This document shows, piece after piece, positions 28,424 through 36,059 of a stretch of DNA of 64,000 nt. The notes under the pieces were generated by a model. It was not told the DNA's origin and searched no databases. It saw only the letters and a program-made list of their open reading frames with translations. This DNA is from Dehalococcoidia bacterium. Lineage in GTDB: Bacteria; Chloroflexota; Dehalococcoidia; Lucifugimonadales; UBA3495. Position 1 is the first letter of the stretch. Each line of letters opens with the position of its first letter. The stretch is from assembly GCA_965116565.1 (NCBI GenBank), contig OZ220699.1, positions 483,589-547,588 of the forward strand, given 5' to 3'. The translations under genes were made by a program, and so were the position numbers.

Positions 28424-29761
28424 ATGGCGCACGCGTCCGCGCCGCCACAGCCGGCGCCGAATGTACCGACCACCGAAGGCCGCCGCACGGGCAACGGCGT
28501 GATGGCCTCCACGCTCATCGGCGCCCACGCCTTCGAGCACTTCTTCTCCAACGCCATCCCTCTGCTCACCACGTTCATCGCCGCCGACATGGGGTTGAGC
28601 GCCCTCCAGGTGGGGGTGATTGTGGCCGTGCGCTCGGCGTTTGCCGGAGTCACCAGCGTTCTGGGCGGGTTCCTGTCGGACCTGTTCCACCACCGGGTGG
28701 CGTGGGTGCTGTCGATCAGCGCGTTCCTTTCGGGCATCGGCCTGCTGATGATGGCGGTGTCGCCATCCTTTGCGCCGCTGCTGATCGCGCTGGCCTGCGC
28801 GTCGTCCGGAGCGGCGCTGTGGCATCCCCCGGCGCTGGGGCTATTGGCGCAGAGATTCCCCAGCCGGCGCGCCCTGTTCATATCCATGCACCGCTCCACC
28901 GGCAGCGTCGGCGACGTTCTGGGTCCGATGGCCGCCGGCATCCTGCTGCTGGGCGCGTTGCAATGGGAGGCCTCGGATGGCCTGACCGTAGGGTGGGAAC
29001 TGGGCTGGGAGCCGATCGGCTGGCGCATGTGGCTGGCCGTCAGCGCGCCCGTGATGATCGTCTCGGCGTTCATCATCTATGGACTGCTGCGCCACGCGGG
29101 CAACGCGCCGGTGTTGAACATCGACATCGTCCAGCGGATGCGCCACCAGTGGGACAGCACCCGGGTGGCGTTTCGCGGCACCGGCCTGTGGGCGATATTC
29201 GCGGTGTCTGCGGTGCGCGGCATGGCCGACGGCTCGCTGCTGTTCCTGGTGCCGCTTTACATGACGCAGGCGCTGGGGGTCAACTCATTCCAGGCGGCGG
29301 CGCACCTGGCCCTGATGGTCGGGCCGGCCATGGTGACGGCGCCGCTCATCGGAGCGCTCTCGGACAAGGTGGGACGAAAGTCCTTGATCGTGTTCCTGAT
29401 GGCGTTCACCACGGTGCTGACCGTGGCCATGCCGCTCAGCGGGCAGCAGTATTCCCCGTGGATCACCGTCTGCGTCGCGCTGTACGGGTTGCAGCACTTC
29501 ACGGTGATCAACCTCACGTCGGCGGCAGCGGCGGACGTGGCCGCGCGGTACCGGCTGGAATCGAGTTTCCTGGGCTTGATGTGGGGCAACAACGTTCTGT
29601 TCGGGGCGGTGGCCGCCGTGCTGATTTTCGGGCCGATCGAGTGGTTGGACTGGCAGTACGGCTTTTTCATCGCGGCCGGCATCTACTTCGTCGGCCTGCT
29701 GGCGTCGCTGATGATCCCGAGCGACCGCGGAGGGCCGGAACCGGCGGCGGCCTCCGCCTGA
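28424..29761 (+). CDS. MFS transporter (paralog 2)
   Basis: Colinear paralog of 26974..28347; GALSDKVGRK. Confidence 0.9.
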   Translation: MAHASAPPQPAPNVPTTEGRRTGNGVMASTLIGAHAFEHFFSNAIPLLTTFIAADMGLSALQVGVIVAVRSAFAGVTSVLGGFLSDLFHHRVAWVLSISAFLSGIGLLMMAVSPSFAPLLIALACASSGAALWHPPALGLLAQRFPSRRALFISMHRSTGSVGDVLGPMAAGILLLGALQWEASDGLTVGWELGWEPIGWRMWLAVSAPVMIVSAFIIYGLLRHAGNAPVLNIDIVQRMRHQWDSTRVAFRGTGLWAIFAVSAVRGMADGSLLFLVPLYMTQALGVNSFQAAAHLALMVGPAMVTAPLIGALSDKVGRKSLIVFLMAFTTVLTVAMPLSGQQYSPWITVCVALYGLQHFTVINLTSAAAADVAARYRLESSFLGLMWGNNVLFGAVAAVLIFGPIEWLDWQYGFFIAAGIYFVGLLASLMIPSDRGGPEPAAASA

Positions 29762-29817
29762 TAGCCCGACGCAGCCCGCTATAATGGTTGCAGATCCGTA
29801 GCATTCGGAGGCCGGAG

Positions 29818-30573
29818 ATGCTGACGCCGGAGCAGATACAGGAAGTCAAGGCCATTGTGCGTGAGGCTGACCGCGCCTTTGACCGGCGCAACTACGAAGG
29901 TTTCTCGCAGAAAATCTGGGACGCCACGGCGCAGGCCATCCGGTTCATCGCCAAAGAGCGGGGTTGGCCCCACGAAACCGACGCGGATATTGACGCTGCC
30001 GGACGTGGGTTAGCCGGCGAGTACGATGATGCCGGTTCTGCACTGTCCGAATTCCGCACCGCAGACTTCTGCCGAGTCAACGGTCAGGGTCTCGTGTTGC
30101 ACAGGTACGAAATCGAAGAAGATCGGGATCTCGCGTACACCTTTGTAGAACGATTGGCGGGAACTTCGTTGTGCGATGATAGAGCACCGAGGAGACGGGC
30201 AATTGCTCTGTTCGGTGAGGAGGCTAATACAGTCAAAGACATGGTCGCAAAAGCCGATGCAGCATTTGCCCGGCAGGATTATCAGAGGTTCTACGCGCAA
30301 ATGTGGGACGCAACTGCCCAAGCCATCCGCTTCGTGGCTATGGAACGAGGCTGGCCTTACGAAACCGACGCCGACATCGAGACCGCCGGCTTGCGATTAG
30401 CCCGAGATTACGAAGACGATTTTGACGCAATGGCGGAACTGAGCTTTGCCCGATTCGCTCGCGTCAACGGGCGTTGCCTGGCGCTCAAAGATTACGAAAT
30501 CTCCGAGGACTGGGAAATCTCCGTCCGCTTCGTAGATCGGCTGCTCGGCACGTCGTCCCGCTACAAGCCATGA
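29818..30573 (+). CDS. Tandem-duplicated PaREP1/HEPN-like domain protein lacking His motifs
   Basis: Two copies of WDATAQAIRF.A.ERGWP.ETDADI; GGAG RBS; TATAAT at 29780. Confidence 0.65.
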   Translation: MLTPEQIQEVKAIVREADRAFDRRNYEGFSQKIWDATAQAIRFIAKERGWPHETDADIDAAGRGLAGEYDDAGSALSEFRTADFCRVNGQGLVLHRYEIEEDRDLAYTFVERLAGTSLCDDRAPRRRAIALFGEEANTVKDMVAKADAAFARQDYQRFYAQMWDATAQAIRFVAMERGWPYETDADIETAGLRLARDYEDDFDAMAELSFARFARVNGRCLALKDYEISEDWEISVRFVDRLLGTSSRYKP

Positions 30574-30923
30574 CCGCCACAGAGTGCATTGACGCATACC
30601 GCAGATTTTCCGTTTTGGCGGAGCAGCATTTTAGTCAAGGCGATGACCGTGCCGGCGCCGAAATGCTGTATGGCGCGCTGACTCAGATCATCATAGCAAT
30701 TGCCCTGGGGCGCCGAGCGGAGTTTCGAGAACATCAACACCGTAGGCGGGTCGTTCGCGCGCTCACCACCGAACTCAACGATTCTGGAATAGGCAAAGCC
30801 TTCGCCGCGGCTCAGCGGCTGCATGTACATTTCTACCTAAATAACCTGGCTGGGGATGACCTGGTGGAAGACATCAGCGATACTCATACTCTCATCAACC
30901 GCCTCCTGCCCCTAACCTCCTGA
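30570..30923 (+). CDS. PaREP1-family (HEPN-like) protein
   Basis: GAEMLYGA, EHQH, AQRLHVHFY motif; ATGA overlap with the upstream gene. Confidence 0.75.
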   Translation: MTATECIDAYRRFSVLAEQHFSQGDDRAGAEMLYGALTQIIIAIALGRRAEFREHQHRRRVVRALTTELNDSGIGKAFAAAQRLHVHFYLNNLAGDDLVEDISDTHTLINRLLPLTS

Positions 30924-30925
30924 CC

Positions 30926-31594
30926 ATGACCGCCATCCGCACATCCGGCCTCCTGTTCCTCATCACCGCCGTCGCCACGGCGGTATCGGTGATGACCCGT
31001 CTCAGCGGCAGCGCGGAGCCTCTTGAAGGCAGTCCCATCCAGGTCCCAATCATCCTGGACCAGGGCCAGTACGTGATCGCAGGGGCGGCCCGCACCATCT
31101 CCGGATTCGCGCTGGTGGCAGCGGCGGCGTTTCTGAGGCTCGCGCTGCGTCGAGGGCAACCGGTAACGGTGGGGATCGCCACTACATTGCTGGAACTCTC
31201 GGGGACGGCGACGGCGATTTCCGGAGTGTCGATGCTGGCCCTGGCCGGATGGTTGCCACAGGCCGCGGAAGGGACCGCAACGCTCGTGGCCTGGGACGCT
31301 CCGGGCTGGATGGGAGCGGTTGACGGCGCGCGCTGGTTCGCCGGCAAGGTGGGATTCACGCTGGCCGGCCTGGGCCTCATCGCGCTGGGGCCGGTACAGT
31401 GGCGCATGGGCGGGATATTCAAAATCAGCGCGGTCGTCGACGTCATTATCGGCGTAGCCATGCTCTTTATCTGGGTAGATGCCGCCACCGTGATGCACCG
31501 TATATCCGGCATCGCCTTCCTGGTCTGGCTGATCATTATGGGCGTCTGGCTGACGCTGGGCCTGATCAAGTCTCCCCAACCCGCGACGACGTAA
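30926..31594 (+). CDS. Multi-pass membrane protein (DUF4386-like)
   Basis: About six TM segments, ends 'AFLVWLIIMGVWL'. Confidence 0.65.
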   Translation: MTAIRTSGLLFLITAVATAVSVMTRLSGSAEPLEGSPIQVPIILDQGQYVIAGAARTISGFALVAAAAFLRLALRRGQPVTVGIATTLLELSGTATAISGVSMLALAGWLPQAAEGTATLVAWDAPGWMGAVDGARWFAGKVGFTLAGLGLIALGPVQWRMGGIFKISAVVDVIIGVAMLFIWVDAATVMHRISGIAFLVWLIIMGVWLTLGLIKSPQPATT

Positions 31595-31652
31595 CCTGTC
31601 AGTGCGGGCCCACCTCCGCCGGATGAGTTAATGCCAAAATTCCCCCGGCAAG

Positions 31653-31760
31653 TGACACCCGCCCGTTGTCCGCAGTAGCGCCCACGTTCTATCCTGCATT
31701 CGTCAGGTCCCCAACCGGTGATCGAGAACCGCGCGGGGTCGTCGCATCGCATGCAGTGGC
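31653..31760. repeat. ~110-bp dispersed repeat, copy 1 (copy 2 at 61496-61604)
   Basis: About 89% identical to copy 2 (11 substitutions, 1 indel); both intergenic, same orientation. Confidence 0.9.
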
Positions 31761-32072
31761 GTTTCACCAAACCATTGAAACATAGCGAGGTGTCAAAAGG
31801 TTCGGGTCAATAAACGGCCTGTCGGGTAACCGACGGCAGAATATGGTTCCCAAGGGGCCTATGGGTGGTTCAATCCCCGACCAGGCTCCCGGAACCCCCA
31901 AACCCTCCCACCGGCCCGCCAAAACCACTATTTTCGCCCCCAAAACCGGCCCAATCCGCCACCATTCACCCCCAAGTCCAACCTCACCGCCCTACTCAAA
32001 TGAACGGAAATGAGCGGAAGTGAGCGGGTTTTCGCAAAACCCCCACCGTCCCAATCCATCCCGCCCGCGATC

Positions 32073-32097
32073 GTCATTCCGGCGAAAGCCGGAATCC
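32073..32097 (+). repeat. GTCATTCCGGCGAAAGCCGGAATCC-type REP
   Basis: ATTCCGGC-GAAA-GCCGGAAT hairpin; relatives at 32498 and 61317. Confidence 0.85.
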
Positions 32098-32116
32098 GGA
32101 TCTCAGAGGTAACCCC

Positions 32117-32449
32117 ATGACCATCTCCCAAATCCGTCGTCGCATCGACGCCCTCAAGCGCCGGTTCGCCCCCGAACTCGCCATCATCAGGCTCCGCCGC
32201 ATCGCCGAGGCCGTCGCCGACGATTGGGACCCCGACCATCCTCCCGAACCCGCCGACGTCATACAGCGTATCGCCCGTGCCGGCTTCTGCCTCAACACCT
32301 TCACCAACCTCAGCCGCTACCTCAAAGACACCCGACTCCAGAGTGATGTCCCCATACCCGAATCAATCGTCCTCAGACTCCTCCCCTGGGCCAGCGCCGA
32401 TCGCTATAGCGGCCTCCTCCGCTGGGACCTGCCCGCCCCCGCGCGCTAG
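32117..32449 (+). CDS. Hypothetical protein
   Basis: GAGGT RBS, 110 aa, GC3-biased codons; bracketed by REPs. Confidence 0.65.
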   Translation: MTISQIRRRIDALKRRFAPELAIIRLRRIAEAVADDWDPDHPPEPADVIQRIARAGFCLNTFTNLSRYLKDTRLQSDVPIPESIVLRLLPWASADRYSGLLRWDLPAPAR

Positions 32450-32497
32450 CCGGCTTTGACATTTGGAACATGCCCCGTCGTTCCGGCGCCATCGTCC

Positions 32498-32550
32498 GTC
32501 ATTCCGGTGAAAGCCCGTCACCCCGTGCTTGACACAGGGCCGGAATCCAG
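32498..32550 (+). repeat. Composite REP: GTCATTCCGG..GCCGGAATCCAG element interrupted by a CACCCCGTGCTTGACACAGGG element
   Basis: gtcattccggtgaaagcc|cgtcaccccgtgcttgacacaggg|ccggaatccag. Confidence 0.7.
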
Positions 32551-32669
32551 TGAGTGCAAAATGAAGAGAAGCCCACCGCAACACCAACCGGCGCCACCCT
32601 TGACACACAACACATACTGCTGGTCCGCCTTGAGCGGATGGCAATCTCGTGACTCACAGGAGATCAAAA

Positions 32670-33167
32670 ATGCCCACCCGCGATGAAAACCTCGCCACCG
32701 TACGACGTATCCGCGACGAGCTGACGTCCTTGCTGGAGGGGATGGACTACTGCCTCGACTGGAAGGACGGCGACAACCGAGCCCTTGACCAATGGAGCGC
32801 GCGCGAGGTGCTGTATCACCTGGTGGACACACCTGAAGGCGGTATCGGCAGCGTCATCGCCGGCGTGTTGAACGGCGCCAGGGATGAGGTCACCATCCTG
32901 CCCGACGCCAACAACATGACGCCGGAGCGAATGGCAACGGATATGAACGAAGCGCTGTCCGGTCCGCTGGGCATCCTGCAGACGGCCGAGGATGCCATCG
33001 CCGGCGCGTCGGACGCGGACTTTACGGAGAAGGCCGCCATGGCCCACCTGCCGCACCGCGACATCCACGAGATGCGCACGGCCCAGTCGTTCATCGACGG
33101 GCTGGAACGGCACTGGGGCGAGCACCTGAACCAGCTGAGAGTGATTCGCGAGACGCTCGGCGTGTAG
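32670..33167 (+). CDS. DinB-superfamily protein
   Basis: WSAREVLYHL and HWGEHLNQL His motifs; AGGAG RBS. Confidence 0.7.
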   Translation: MPTRDENLATVRRIRDELTSLLEGMDYCLDWKDGDNRALDQWSAREVLYHLVDTPEGGIGSVIAGVLNGARDEVTILPDANNMTPERMATDMNEALSGPLGILQTAEDAIAGASDADFTEKAAMAHLPHRDIHEMRTAQSFIDGLERHWGEHLNQLRVIRETLGV

Positions 33168-34420: not shown

Positions 34421-35338
34421 ATGTCTTCGCAACTCCCCCATCCCTTTCCTTATCAGGGCAGCAAGCGCAATATCGCCAAGCATATATTGCCGTACCTACC
34501 GAGCGATACAAGCCGCTTGATAGAGCCATTTTGCGGCTCTGCGGCTGTCACAATTGCAGCAGCAGCCCACGGGTTAGCTGGAAAATTTGTCCTCAATGAT
34601 ATTGACGCAGCGTTGATGGACCTTTGGGCAGAAATTATAGATAGGCCGGGTCAGTTAATGGATGGGTACGATCAACTCTGGAGTGAACAGCATGCGGACC
34701 GGAAAGAGCATTTTTACCGAATCCGAACAGAGTTCAACGAGACACACCACCCTCATCACCTGCTGTACTTACTGGCTAGGATCGTTAAGGGCGCAGTAAG
34801 GTACAGCTCGGATGGGTTTTTCAATCAGAGTCCAGACAATCGCCGGTCTGGTATGAAACCGGCGACTATGCGACGACAGATTTTTGGCGTCTCTGCATTG
34901 TTATCCGAGAGAACCACACTTTCTTCCCTGGATTTCAGGGATGTTGCGATGACGGCGAGGCCCTTGGACGTTGTGTATATGGACCCCCCATATCAAGGCA
35001 CTTCGTTTGTGAGAGATCATCGTTACTACAGCGGGATCACCTACAATGAATTCGCTGACGTTCTCGCCTTGATGAACTTGAACCACGTATCTTATATGGT
35101 CAGTTATGATGGCCGCACGGGGGAGAAACAACATGGGAAACAGCTCCCACGCGAACTTCGCCTGCGTCACTTGGAAATTTATGCGGGAAAATCGAGCCAA
35201 GCTACGCTTCTCGGACAAGACAGCGACACCGTCGAATCTTTGTATTTGTCTCCGGCACTGGTAAACAGACTGGACTCCATTGGGAGCGGTTATTTTCAGT
35301 CAGCACTATGGAAGCCAGCAGGTTTCCCGAATGAATGA
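34421..35338 (+). CDS. N6-adenine DNA methyltransferase (Dam/D12 alpha class) of a type II RM pair
   Basis: YQGSK, EPFCGSAAV (motif I), VYMDPPY (motif IV); lower GC. Confidence 0.92.
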   Translation: MSSQLPHPFPYQGSKRNIAKHILPYLPSDTSRLIEPFCGSAAVTIAAAAHGLAGKFVLNDIDAALMDLWAEIIDRPGQLMDGYDQLWSEQHADRKEHFYRIRTEFNETHHPHHLLYLLARIVKGAVRYSSDGFFNQSPDNRRSGMKPATMRRQIFGVSALLSERTTLSSLDFRDVAMTARPLDVVYMDPPYQGTSFVRDHRYYSGITYNEFADVLALMNLNHVSYMVSYDGRTGEKQHGKQLPRELRLRHLEIYAGKSSQATLLGQDSDTVESLYLSPALVNRLDSIGSGYFQSALWKPAGFPNE

Positions 35339-36059
35339 ACCGAACTTGCCGCCGGAATTTTTGGAGTTGCTACGTAACGTCCAAGCGCGCCGTCCCCGCA
35401 CCGTAATTGACCATATCCTTCAACACGGGTTCGTGACTACCGAGGAGCTTCGAGACCTGTACGGGTACAACCATCCACCCAGGGGAGCGCGGGACGTGCG
35501 TGAGCTCGGCATTCCGCTTGAAACCTTCAGGGTTACGGCGTCAGACGGTCGGTCGATAGGCGCGTATCGGTTCGGAGACCCGGCTGCACAAAGGTCCGCA
35601 ATGCTATCTGGACGAACGGGTTTCTCCGCCACCATCAAGGCCGAACTGATTGAAAAATTCGGTTCCCGCTGCAACCTGTACCTTGAGGATTTCCCTGAAC
35701 GAGAACTTCAGATTGACCACCGAATCCCATTTGGAATCGCCGGTGAGGGCAGTCTATCCACCGATATAGATGACTATATGCTTTTGTGCCCTTCAGCCAA
35801 TCGCGCGAAATCGTGGAGTTGCGAGCATTGCGAGAACTGGGAAACGCGAGAGGCGGATGCTTGCCGTTCTTGCTATTGGGCTTTCCCAGAGAATTACACC
35901 CATATCGCTATGCGCCAAATTCGCCGCCTGGATATAATCTGGTCAAATGACGAAGTATCAGAATACGAAAGATTGACTGACGCGGCCCGCGACGAACAAC
36001 AGGAACTGCCGGAGTTTGTCAAAGCAGTGATACGGCGCCATCTCGAGACGCTGGGGTAA
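35331..36059 (+). CDS. HNH-type restriction endonuclease (SphI-like)
   Basis: GYNHPPRGARD N-terminal motif, LQIDHRIP...CPSANRAK HNH core, CEHC/CRSC zinc ligands; 8-bp overlap with MTase. Confidence 0.8.
   Translation: MNEPNLPPEFLELLRNVQARRPRTVIDHILQHGFVTTEELRDLYGYNHPPRGARDVRELGIPLETFRVTASDGRSIGAYRFGDPAAQRSAMLSGRTGFSATIKAELIEKFGSRCNLYLEDFPERELQIDHRIPFGIAGEGSLSTDIDDYMLLCPSANRAKSWSCEHCENWETREADACRSCYWAFPENYTHIAMRQIRRLDIIWSNDEVSEYERLTDAARDEQQELPEFVKAVIRRHLETLG

What the first reader, a model, noticed from the sequence alone, without database searches (positions are those of the whole stretch)
29818..30923. PaREP1 operon: His-less tandem dimer followed by a His-retaining monomer
Seen: gene 1 has two PaREP1-like domains in which the family's His positions read ETDADI and FCRVN/FARVN; gene 2 (ATGA-coupled) keeps EHQH and LHVHFY. 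Established: PaREP1 is HEPN-like, and HEPN RNases act as dimers. Inference: a possible new TA type in which an inactive single-chain pseudo-dimer neutralises the active HEPN-like toxin.
Basis: partly seen in the sequence, partly recalled or inferred. Interest (0 to 1): 0.62.

Follow-up and report, generated by a model that had tools for sequence, protein, structure and literature searches.

The report
Paired dead-and-live PaREP1 (HEPN-like) gene cassette
A marine Dehalococcoidia bacterium carries a small dispensable two-gene cassette in which a doubled copy of a HEPN-like protein, stripped of its likely catalytic residues, is coupled to an intact copy; this pairing recurs about ten times in the genome and gives a testable candidate for the long-missing partner of the PaREP1 family.

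Summary
Gene 1 (29818-30573, 251 aa) is an internal tandem duplication; its halves are 53% identical. Each half is a remote PaREP1/HEPN-fold domain that has lost the family's Glu and both His. Gene 2 (30570-30923, 117 aa) is a bona fide PaREP1 protein that keeps them, and the two genes overlap by ATGA.

The locus is not unique. Relatives carry a single-domain gene 1 plus gene 2. This genome holds about 10 such pairs of a His-less "A" gene upstream and a His-bearing "B" gene downstream, plus about 30 unpaired copies. Doubled A-A genes followed by B arose independently in at least three lineages.

The pair is accessory. It is present in 12 of 25 genomes of the genus. It sits between two core genes, at a spot that elsewhere holds a Thoeris-like TIR cassette. 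One relative keeps A only.

Both genes are under purifying selection.

Best reading (about 0.4): A-A is a non-catalytic dimeric partner that masks B, in the manner of a toxin-antitoxin pair. The main rival (about 0.33) is a stable, non-toxic heteromer. Toxicity, RNase activity and binding were not tested here.

The parts
29758..29785 (+). Promoter-like site, CTGATA-16 nt-TATAAT, 32 nt upstream of gene 1
   Evidence: 10 of 12 consensus matches. This is a consensus match only. The same CCGCTATAAT box lies directly before the DUF4386-like gene in the cassette-free relative G003. The cassette therefore sits between that box and gene 3.
29818..30573 (+). Gene 1: 251-aa single-chain A-A protein made of two non-catalytic PaREP1-like domains
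   Evidence: There are 13 orthologous clusters at 75-85% identity, all 251 aa. dN/dS is 0.10.
29818..30162 (+). A domain 1 (aa 1-115): five helices; WPHETDAD acidic loop; FCRVN in place of LHxNFY
   Evidence: dN/dS is 0.107.
30163..30213 (+). Linker (aa 116-132), predicted disordered
   Evidence: pLDDT below 50 at residues 122-128. This is the least conserved stretch in A2.
30214..30570 (+). A domain 2 (aa 133-251): WPYETDAD acidic loop; FARVN
   Evidence: dN/dS is 0.082. The N and C halves are sister clades, support 96/96.
30570..30573 (+). ATGA overlap of the gene 1 stop and the gene 2 start (translational coupling)
   Evidence: The same 4-nt overlap is seen in relatives and in 6 of the first 8 paralogous pairs examined in this genome.
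30570..30923 (+). Gene 2: 117-aa B-type PaREP1 protein that keeps E31, H55/H57 and R83-L-H85-V-H87-F-Y
   Evidence: AlphaFold pLDDT 94.4, pTM 0.88. Foldseek hits: 2q00_A TM 0.76, 2hsb 0.79, other HEPN structures, and the HepT toxin 6m6w_H. dN/dS is 0.17.
30926..31594 (+). Gene 3: DUF4386-like membrane protein. It is a core neighbour, probably co-transcribed, and not part of the module.
   Evidence: Weak Pfam DUF4386 hit. Present in all 25 genomes of the genus, with or without the pair.
28424..29761 (+). MFS transporter gene, the upstream core flank
   Evidence: It is syntenic in all related loci.

Best explanation
The locus is one member of a two-gene module family built from two diverged PaREP1 (HEPN-T clade) paralogues.

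B (gene 2) keeps the family's conserved Glu...His...His set and is the effector. By analogy with other HEPN proteins it is probably an RNA-cleaving enzyme.

A (gene 1) has lost all three residues. It carries an acidic run (ETDAD) where B carries a His/Arg run (EHQHRRR). A and B are made in a fixed ratio through stop/start coupling.

A works as a dimer. Here, and independently in other lineages, that dimer became a single chain through internal duplication. It binds B and masks its His/Arg site. This keeps B silent until a trigger such as infection or stress frees it. The behaviour is like a toxin-antitoxin pair or an abortive-infection system.

Shown here: homology of A and B; loss of the residues; coupling; strict co-occurrence; recurrence; accessory distribution; purifying selection.

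Inferred: binding, inhibition, RNase activity, and the trigger.
For: Homology and residue loss:
- A and B are homologous, and A has lost E/H/H.
- Both have a HEPN/PaREP1 fold.

Co-occurrence:
- The orthologous pair is adjacent in 12 of 12 genomes and 13 of 13 loci.
- There are about 10 paralogous A->B pairs in this genome and no B-type gene without an upstream A. The starts mostly overlap the stops by 4 nt.
- Four of 4 distant A-type subfamilies sampled elsewhere also have a B reading frame overlapping the A stop.

A-A fusions:
- Independent A-A fusions are followed by B (P0189 in L046, P0193 in L045) or by A+B (P0190 in L042).

Accessory behaviour:
- The pair is present in 12 of 25 genomes of the genus, while gene 3 is present in 25 of 25.
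- The site is empty or deleted in G003 and G002.
- The same site holds ThsB-TIR + PDC-M50A in G018, and both cassettes together in L028.

Asymmetric loss:
- G011 keeps an intact A and has lost B.
- One B in this genome is frameshifted next to an intact A.

Charge: median pI is 4.8 for A and 6.4 for B; median net charge is -8.5 against -2.

Family dynamics: PF05942 copy number ranges from 7 to 82 per genome in the genus and is mostly 0 in sister families.

Literature:
Against: - No PaREP1 protein has a demonstrated activity. The canonical Rx4-6H motif is absent (R83-x-H85).
- About 24 unpaired copies with an intact E/H/H set have no recurring partner. An intact PaREP1 domain is therefore not toxic by itself, or it is controlled some other way.
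- A is more conserved than B: 85/66, 75/66 and 78/62% identity on shared contigs, and dN/dS 0.10 against 0.17. A is also fully folded and has no DNA-binding domain. This is unlike most type II antitoxins.
- Single-chain inactive-active fusions exist (P0191, P0211, P0218). They suggest a permanent association.
- The AlphaFold model gives no confident packing of the two halves (pTM 0.54).
- There is no match in PADLOC or PHROGs.
- The orphan asymmetry rests on one or two cases.
Confidence: 0.4

Rival explanations
1. Obligate, non-toxic heteromer. A homodimeric ancestor duplicated and subfunctionalised. B supplies the catalytic residues. A, as A2 or as single-chain A-A, is a permanent scaffold or substrate-binding pseudo-enzyme subunit. 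The complex, not free B, is the working enzyme.
For: - A is conserved more strongly than B, and its own polar positions are invariant: W34, K32, T54, R86, N88, E101-D102-W103.
- The losses are complementary. A keeps the helix-2 Lys that B has lost, and B keeps the Glu that A has lost.
- Single-chain inactive-active fusions exist, in the same N-to-C order as the gene pairs (P0191, P0211, P0218).
- Stop/start coupling fits fixed stoichiometry.
- Unpaired intact copies are evidently tolerated.
Against: - The distribution is patchy within one genus, and G011 tolerates loss of B alone with A retained.
- The cassette lies in a hot spot shared with defence-type cargo.
- Extreme swings in copy number are more typical of conflict systems than of enzymes.
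- The replacement of the His/Arg loop by an acidic loop looks like masking, not like a contribution to catalysis.
Confidence: 0.33
2. Not nucleases at all. PaREP1 bundles bind a metal or a small ligand through the Glu/His/His set, as DinB-like or other helical-bundle His proteins do. A/B pairs would then be binding proteins or chaperones with one liganding and one non-liganding subunit.
For: - The conserved set is E + H + H. B-type proteins are His-rich, with a median of 7 His in about 120 aa.
- The canonical HEPN Arg is missing (PMC3710099).
- No activity is known for the family.
Against: - The closest folds are all HEPN proteins, including the HepT RNase toxin. Pfam places the family in the HEPN/KNTase_C clan.
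- An accessory, defence-adjacent distribution is not expected for metal handling.
- No metal-related neighbours recur.
Confidence: 0.12
3. The pair serves the flanking membrane proteins (the MFS transporters and the DUF4386-like gene 3) as part of one conserved operon.
For: - The order MFS-MFS-g1-g2-g3-DinB-like is syntenic in 13 public loci.
- Gene 3 starts 2 nt after the gene 2 stop.
- A promoter-like box is shared.
Against: - Gene 3 and the MFS genes are present in every genome of the genus, while the pair is in only half.
- Other A/B pairs sit between unrelated metabolic genes.
- The same gap carries unrelated cargo in G018.
Confidence: 0.04
4. Gene 1 is a decaying duplicate or an assembly artefact with no function.
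For: It has lost the conserved residues. It has no Pfam hit above the cut-off.
Against: - Thirteen independent metagenomic clusters share the intact 251-aa frame.
- dN/dS is about 0.1 in both halves.
- The fold is predicted with confidence.
- A-type orthologues are conserved across the genus.
Confidence: 0.01

Closest known systems
PaREP1/PaREP8 family (Pfam PF05942; HEPN-T clade of Anantharaman et al. 2013, PMC3710099; structure 2q00)
   Same: - Gene 2 passes the Pfam cut-off.
- Both genes have the same five-helix HEPN-type fold.
- The His of the degenerate motif is kept and the Arg of Rx4-6H is not.
- The family is multi-copy and found in variable regions, and tandem PaREP genes were already noted in archaea.
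   Different: - The family is described as archaeal and thermophile-centred. Here there are 7-82 copies per genome in a bacterial (Dehalococcoidia/SAR202-type) genus.
- The A-type partner is below Pfam detection and is annotated only as hypothetical.
- I found no description in the held literature of the systematic pairing of a partner that has lost E/H/H (upstream) with an intact partner (downstream), nor of the single-chain A-A form.
HEPN-MNT (HepT-MntA) type VII toxin-antitoxin system
   Same: - The effector is a small HEPN-fold protein. Foldseek hits HepT 6m6w_H and 7bxo_F.
- It is a two-gene coupled cassette with the partner upstream, and it is an accessory element.
- Fusions of the two partners occur.
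   Different: - There is no nucleotidyltransferase partner.
- The partner is itself a HEPN paralogue without catalytic residues, so inhibition, if any, would be by binding and not by AMPylation.
- The canonical Rx4-6H motif is absent.
Antitoxins derived from part or a copy of their toxin (for example HipS in HipBST, PMC9325769) and pseudo-enzyme partner subunits in general
   Same: The partner is evolutionarily related to the effector and lacks its catalytic residues.
   Different: - Here the partner is a full-length paralogue of the same fold, not a split-off domain.
- It is repeatedly doubled into one chain.
- No biochemical data exist.
Single-chain two-HEPN effectors (Cas13) and obligate HEPN dimers (Las1, RNase L, Csm6)
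   Same: They support the idea that the working unit is a pair of HEPN domains. Single-chain two-domain PaREP1 proteins (A-A, S-S, inactive-active) are common.
   Different: In those proteins both domains normally contribute catalytic residues. Here one whole chain (A-A) has none, and the intact domain is a separate protein.

Membership tests
PaREP1/PaREP8 (PF05942) | Score above the Pfam gathering cut-off (24.4 bits) | tested here: met
   Gene 2 scores 35.4 bits. All 53 of its homologue clusters carry PF05942.
PaREP1/PaREP8 (PF05942) | The same cut-off applied to gene 1 | tested here: not met
   Gene 1 scores 13.7 bits, E 0.059, in the N half only. Homology is shown only by profile-profile comparison (94.9%, E 4.8e-8) and by fold (2q00_A target TM 0.70). 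Gene 1 is a divergent relative, not a Pfam-defined member.
PaREP1/PaREP8 (PF05942) | Conserved His of the degenerate HEPN motif (LHxNFY), plus the upstream His and the helix-2 Glu | tested here: met
   Met for gene 2: E31 and H85 are invariant, and H55 and H57 are at least 90% conserved. Not met for gene 1: Q/A at the Glu position, D55/D57, and R86/N88.
PaREP1/PaREP8 (PF05942) | Helical HEPN-type fold | tested here: met
   AlphaFold models plus Foldseek. Gene 2 against 2q00_A gives TM 0.76 and against 2hsb 0.79. Gene 1 halves against 2q00_A give target TM 0.70.
Canonical HEPN RNase | Rx4-6H motif | tested here: not met
   Gene 2 has R83-L-H85-V-H87, a spacing of 1 or 3. This agrees with the literature statement that PaREP1/8 lacks the R.
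Canonical HEPN RNase | RNA cleavage activity | not testable with these tools
   No assay was possible. No published activity for PaREP1 was found in the held library.
Type II-like toxin-antitoxin module | Two small adjacent co-directional genes that are translationally coupled and strictly co-occurring | tested here: met
   ATGA overlap. Adjacent in 12 of 12 genomes and 13 of 13 loci.
Type II-like toxin-antitoxin module | Patchy, accessory distribution | tested here: met
   Present in 12 of 25 genomes of the genus. Empty or deleted sites exist, and the hot spot is shared with ThsB/PDC-M50.
Type II-like toxin-antitoxin module | Free toxin arrests growth and the antitoxin neutralises it by binding | not testable with these tools
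   No expression experiment was possible. The structure tool does not offer complex modelling.
Type II-like toxin-antitoxin module | Antitoxin has a DNA-binding domain and/or a disordered, fast-evolving, labile part | tested here: not met
   Gene 1 has no RHH or HTH domain. It is fully helical apart from the linker. It evolves more slowly than gene 2.
Type II-like toxin-antitoxin module | Orphan antitoxins tolerated, orphan toxins not | tested here: inconclusive
   There is one orphan A (G011) and one frameshifted B beside an intact A. No orphan B was found among about 10 pairs here and 13 orthologous loci. The numbers are too small.
HEPN-MNT type VII TA | Minimal nucleotidyltransferase partner | tested here: not met
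   No nucleotidyltransferase domain is found in gene 1 or its neighbours.
Known anti-phage defence systems (PADLOC) | Match to a PADLOC model | tested here: not met
   There are no significant hits for A, B or unpaired copies. The weak PDC-M32B hit (E 0.003, 33 residues) is noise.

The most novel reading that the evidence does not exclude
PaREP1 A/B cassettes are a new toxin-antitoxin or abortive-infection type. In it, the antitoxin is a catalytically dead paralogue of its own HEPN-like toxin. The antitoxin acts as a dimer, repeatedly made single-chain, whose acidic loops plug the His/Arg site of the toxin. This would supply the 'still unidentified antitoxin' of the PaREP1 family raised in 2013.
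Probability: 0.3. Interest if true: 0.75.

Novelty: new variant of a known kind. Interest (0 to 1): 0.58.

Why it matters
PaREP1/8 is a large HEPN family with no known activity and no known partner. In 2013 the literature asked whether it is a toxin with an unidentified antitoxin (PMC3632139).

These results add four things:
- a large bacterial expansion of a family regarded as archaeal;
- a previously unannotated sister family (A-type, at least 171 clusters, all labelled 'hypothetical') that always sits upstream of one PaREP1 subtype;
- a clean natural series (unpaired genes, A+B pairs, A-A+B, and inactive-active fusions) that says the working unit is a pair of domains;
- a small, well-defined pair (251 + 117 aa) that can be tested directly in E. 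coli.

If A neutralises B, this would be inhibition of a HEPN effector by its own dead paralogue. If A is instead a permanent subunit, it would be a pseudo-enzyme heteromer in an accessory gene family. Either outcome gives the first functional handle on PaREP1.

There is also a practical point. Gene callers often miss or miscall the B gene.

Tried and rejected
- Sequence searches of the PDB with gene 1, gene 2 and their profiles gave only chance hits. NCBIfam gave noise only.
- PADLOC and PHROGs gave nothing for A, B or unpaired copies. The weak PDC-M32B hit was rejected as noise.
- I tested whether gene 3 (DUF4386-like) belongs to the module. It does not: it is in all 25 genomes of the genus.
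- I tested whether the doubled gene 1 arose by merging the two tandem pairs seen in L013 and L019. It did not: the N and C halves are sister clades.
- I looked for a recurring partner next to about 30 unpaired copies. None was found; the hits were only antisense frames of the genes themselves.
- Long open frames (463 and 603 aa) around some PaREP1 hits looked like fusions. They are spurious high-GC frames before ordinary unpaired genes.
- Whether the site in G003 is an insertion or a deletion was only tentatively resolved. G003 keeps about 17 nt that resemble the gene 2 3' end, which points to deletion.
- Model coordinates are not exposed. I therefore could not measure how the two halves pack or how close E31, H57 and H85 lie.
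- A complex of A-A with B cannot be submitted to the structure tool.
- dS is saturated (about 1.4), so the dN/dS values are rough.

Full report
**1. What is in the sequence**

Gene 1 runs from ATG 29818 to TGA 30573 (251 aa). Gene 2 runs from ATG 30570 to TGA 30923 (117 aa). The two overlap by ATGA. A GGAGG lies 9 nt before the gene 1 start, and every orthologue begins MLTPEQ or MLSPEQ, so the start is secure.

The two halves of gene 1 are 53% identical over 116 ungapped residues, E 5e-41.

Gene 2 is a Pfam PaREP1 (PF05942) member: 35.4 bits against a cut-off of 24.4. Gene 1 is sub-threshold: 13.7 bits, in the N half only.

A profile of gene-1 domains matches a profile of gene-2 orthologues over the full length (hhalign 94.9%, E 4.8e-8).

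The AlphaFold models give five helices per domain.
- Gene 1: pLDDT 84.7, pTM 0.54, with a disordered linker at about residues 116-132.
- Gene 2: pLDDT 94.4, pTM 0.88.

Foldseek places both on the PaREP1-type structure 2q00 and on HEPN structures. For gene 2 these are 2q00_A (TM 0.76), 2hsb (0.79), 1ufb, 1wol, 4nqf, the sacsin HEPN domain, and the HepT toxin 6m6w_H. For the gene 1 halves, 2q00_A gives target TM 0.70.

In the profile alignment, H55 and H57 of gene 2 face D55 and D57 of gene 1. H85 and H87 of gene 2 face R86 and N88 of gene 1.

**2. The doubled gene 1 is derived; the pair is the unit**

All 13 related public loci come from Dehalococcoidia or SAR202-type Chloroflexota MAGs. In each, a single-domain 122-aa gene 1 overlaps gene 2 by ATGA. 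Two of the loci carry the pair twice in tandem.

The 251-aa form occurs in the window's lineage and in 13 metagenomic clusters at 75-85% identity.

In a maximum-likelihood tree, the N and C halves of the fused proteins form one clade (support 96/96), separate from the single-domain clades. The fused gene therefore arose by internal duplication, not by fusion of two pairs.

**3. A recurring module**

The genome (3.87 Mb, one contig) has 43 PF05942 matches, 31 of them above the cut-off. With HMMs built from A-type and B-type sequences I found about 10 pairs. In each pair an upstream 'A' gene is followed by a downstream 'B' gene. In 6 of the first 8 pairs examined, the B start overlaps the A stop by 4 nt.

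An alignment of A, B and unpaired copies shows a clean pattern.
- Unpaired copies read SEKGWGA ... W-x-H-x-x-H-R ... L-H-x-N-F-Y.
- B keeps the Glu in most copies and the second His in all intact copies. It keeps the first His in most. It has lost the Lys (AEMLWGA).
- A has lost the Glu and, with one partial exception (A_1433, FHHN), both His. The first His stretch is replaced by an acidic run (ETDAD, QTKDD, RDDDD, ETEED). The gene 1 lineage keeps the helix-2 Lys.

A proteins are acidic (median pI 4.8, net charge -8.5). B proteins are near neutral and His-rich (median pI 6.4, net charge -2, 7 His).

No B-type gene lacks an upstream A. About 24 unpaired copies have no recurring neighbour.

The A-type family has at least 171 clusters at 90% identity. 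None has a Pfam annotation, and the only names are 'hypothetical protein [Chloroflexota]'. In 4 of 4 distant A subfamilies sampled, a B-type frame overlaps the A stop, although gene callers missed it in two of them.

**4. Two-domain single chains are common**

A profile search of 1.84 billion representative proteins gave 1176 hits at E up to 1e-3 and 304 at E up to 1e-10. Many proteins of 235-290 aa had two matched stretches. Reading their motifs gives three classes.
- A-A fusions: P0189, P0190, P0192, P0193, P0195, P0196, P0199. Their halves resemble each other more than they resemble other proteins, which indicates independent duplications.
- A fusion with both domains active: P0206.
- Fusions with an inactive N domain and an active C domain: P0191, P0211, P0218.

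The contexts are as follows. P0189 and P0193 are each followed by a B gene. P0190 is followed by an A+B pair. P0191 stands alone near a phage capsid-like gene.

More generally, the working unit of the family is a pair of domains.

**5. The pair is accessory**

Copy number of PF05942 is 7-82 in all 25 genomes of the genus and 0 in most sister families of the order.

The orthologous pair is present, always adjacent, in 12 of 25 genomes of the genus. G011 has gene 1 only. There gene 2 is cleanly absent, and the gene 1 stop overlaps the gene 3 start.

Gene 3 (DUF4386-like) and the MFS genes are in all 25 genomes. The pair is therefore an indel between core genes.
- In G003 the gap is 86 nt. It keeps the CCGCTATAAT box and about 17 nt that resemble the gene 2 3' end, so a deletion is likely.
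- In G018 the same gap holds a ThsB-type TIR gene plus a PDC-M50A membrane gene.
- In L028 that cassette and the fused pair lie side by side.

Selection was estimated with the Nei-Gojobori method on five fused-form loci. dN/dS is 0.10 for gene 1 (0.107 for the N half, 0.082 for the C half), 0.17 for gene 2, 0.31 for gene 3 and 0.24 for the MFS gene. dS of the cassette is about 1.4, which is saturated, against 0.5-0.7 for the flanks. Both halves of A, and B, are functional proteins.

**6. Mechanism**

Shown here: A and B are cognate, co-produced paralogues, and A is a non-catalytic version. A tends to be doubled into one chain. The cassette is dispensable and keeps company with defence-type genes.

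Inferred, and my best reading (about 0.4): A as a dimer docks on B. Its acidic loops mask the His/Arg site of B. This keeps a HEPN-like nuclease silent until it is released.

The main rival (about 0.33) is a permanent, non-toxic heteromer in which A is a pseudo-enzyme subunit. Four observations favour it:
- A is more strongly conserved than B;
- the losses of Lys and Glu are complementary;
- inactive-active fusions exist;
- many intact unpaired copies are tolerated.

A metal- or ligand-binding role is possible (about 0.12). Linkage to the flanking transporters and decay of gene 1 are essentially excluded.

**7. Comparison with what is known**

Anantharaman et al. [quoted passage not shown] Makarova et al. 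2013 asked whether these proteins are toxins 'using a still unidentified antitoxin'. I found no paper in the held library that describes an A-type partner, a bacterial expansion, or a HEPN effector paired with a dead HEPN paralogue.

Gene 2 is a member of PF05942. Gene 1 is a remote relative that fails the family's cut-off and lacks its conserved residues. The cassette fails the HEPN-MNT definition because it has no nucleotidyltransferase. It meets only the genomic criteria of a toxin-antitoxin module, not the functional ones.

**8. Verdict**

This is a new variant of a known kind. It is of moderate to high interest because it turns an old open question about PaREP1 into a simple bench test.

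**Limits**
- Complex modelling was not possible, and model coordinates are not exposed.
- The orphan counts are small.

Noticed in passing
whole genome G000 and 24 genomes of the same genus: There is a lineage-specific expansion of PaREP1 (PF05942) in a bacterial genus of Dehalococcoidia, with 7-82 copies per genome. Most sister families of the order have none. The literature describes the family as archaeal and thermophile-centred.
   Followed up: partly
L026 2497-3454 (G018); L028 1963-2942: The gap between the MFS gene and the DUF4386-like gene is a cargo hot spot. In G018 it holds a ThsB-type TIR gene plus a PDC-M50A membrane gene instead of the PaREP1 pair. In L028 both cassettes sit side by side. 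PDC-M50A-like genes of 153-160 aa without a TIR gene lie upstream of gene 1 in L009, L010, L017, L023, L029 and L030.
   Followed up: partly
L023 1671-2180 (G011:C1, about 1298988-1299350): G011 carries an orphan, intact single-domain gene 1. Gene 2 is cleanly missing, and the gene 1 stop overlaps the start of the DUF4386-like gene.
   Followed up: yes
G000:C1:1434167-1434556 (outside the window): The B-type partner of the pair at 1433697/1434167 changes frame before its LH/IHAD motif, while the upstream A is intact. This is either a real frameshift or an assembly indel.
   Followed up: partly
L032/L033 2844-3212; L036 2691-3098; L037 2572-2979; L038 2569-2976: Public gene calls miss or truncate the B-type gene that overlaps the A stop. 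In L036-L038 an antisense ORF is called instead.
   Followed up: yes
L043/L044 2001-2729 (P0191): This single-chain protein has an inactive N domain and an active C domain. It has no PaREP1 neighbours and lies about 1.9 kb from a phage capsid-like gene, so it may sit in a prophage.
   Followed up: no
window 31595-32669: About 1.07 kb lies between the DUF4386-like gene and the DinB-like gene (32670-33164). In relatives those two genes are about 130 nt apart or overlap. The insert contains a 110-aa ORF (32117-32449) with no Pfam match.
   Followed up: partly
window 34421-36059: A D12-class N6-adenine DNA methyltransferase gene (34421-35338) is followed by an overlapping 259-aa ORF with no Pfam family. 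This may be a restriction-modification pair about 3.5 kb downstream of the cassette.
   Followed up: no
G000:C1: 434212, 3765185, 936144, 927401, 132517, 425920: There is a third PaREP1 subfamily of six copies. Its motif is AEKAWCATKRATDAL ... LHGxCF(Y/H), with conserved Cys residues. It is distinct from the A type, the B type and the common unpaired type.
   Followed up: no
window 29818-30923 against flanks: Synonymous divergence of the cassette among five fused-form loci is about 1.4. For the flanking MFS gene and gene 3 it is 0.5-0.7. This hints at exchange of the cassette between lineages or at a different mutational regime. The values are saturated and rough.
   Followed up: no
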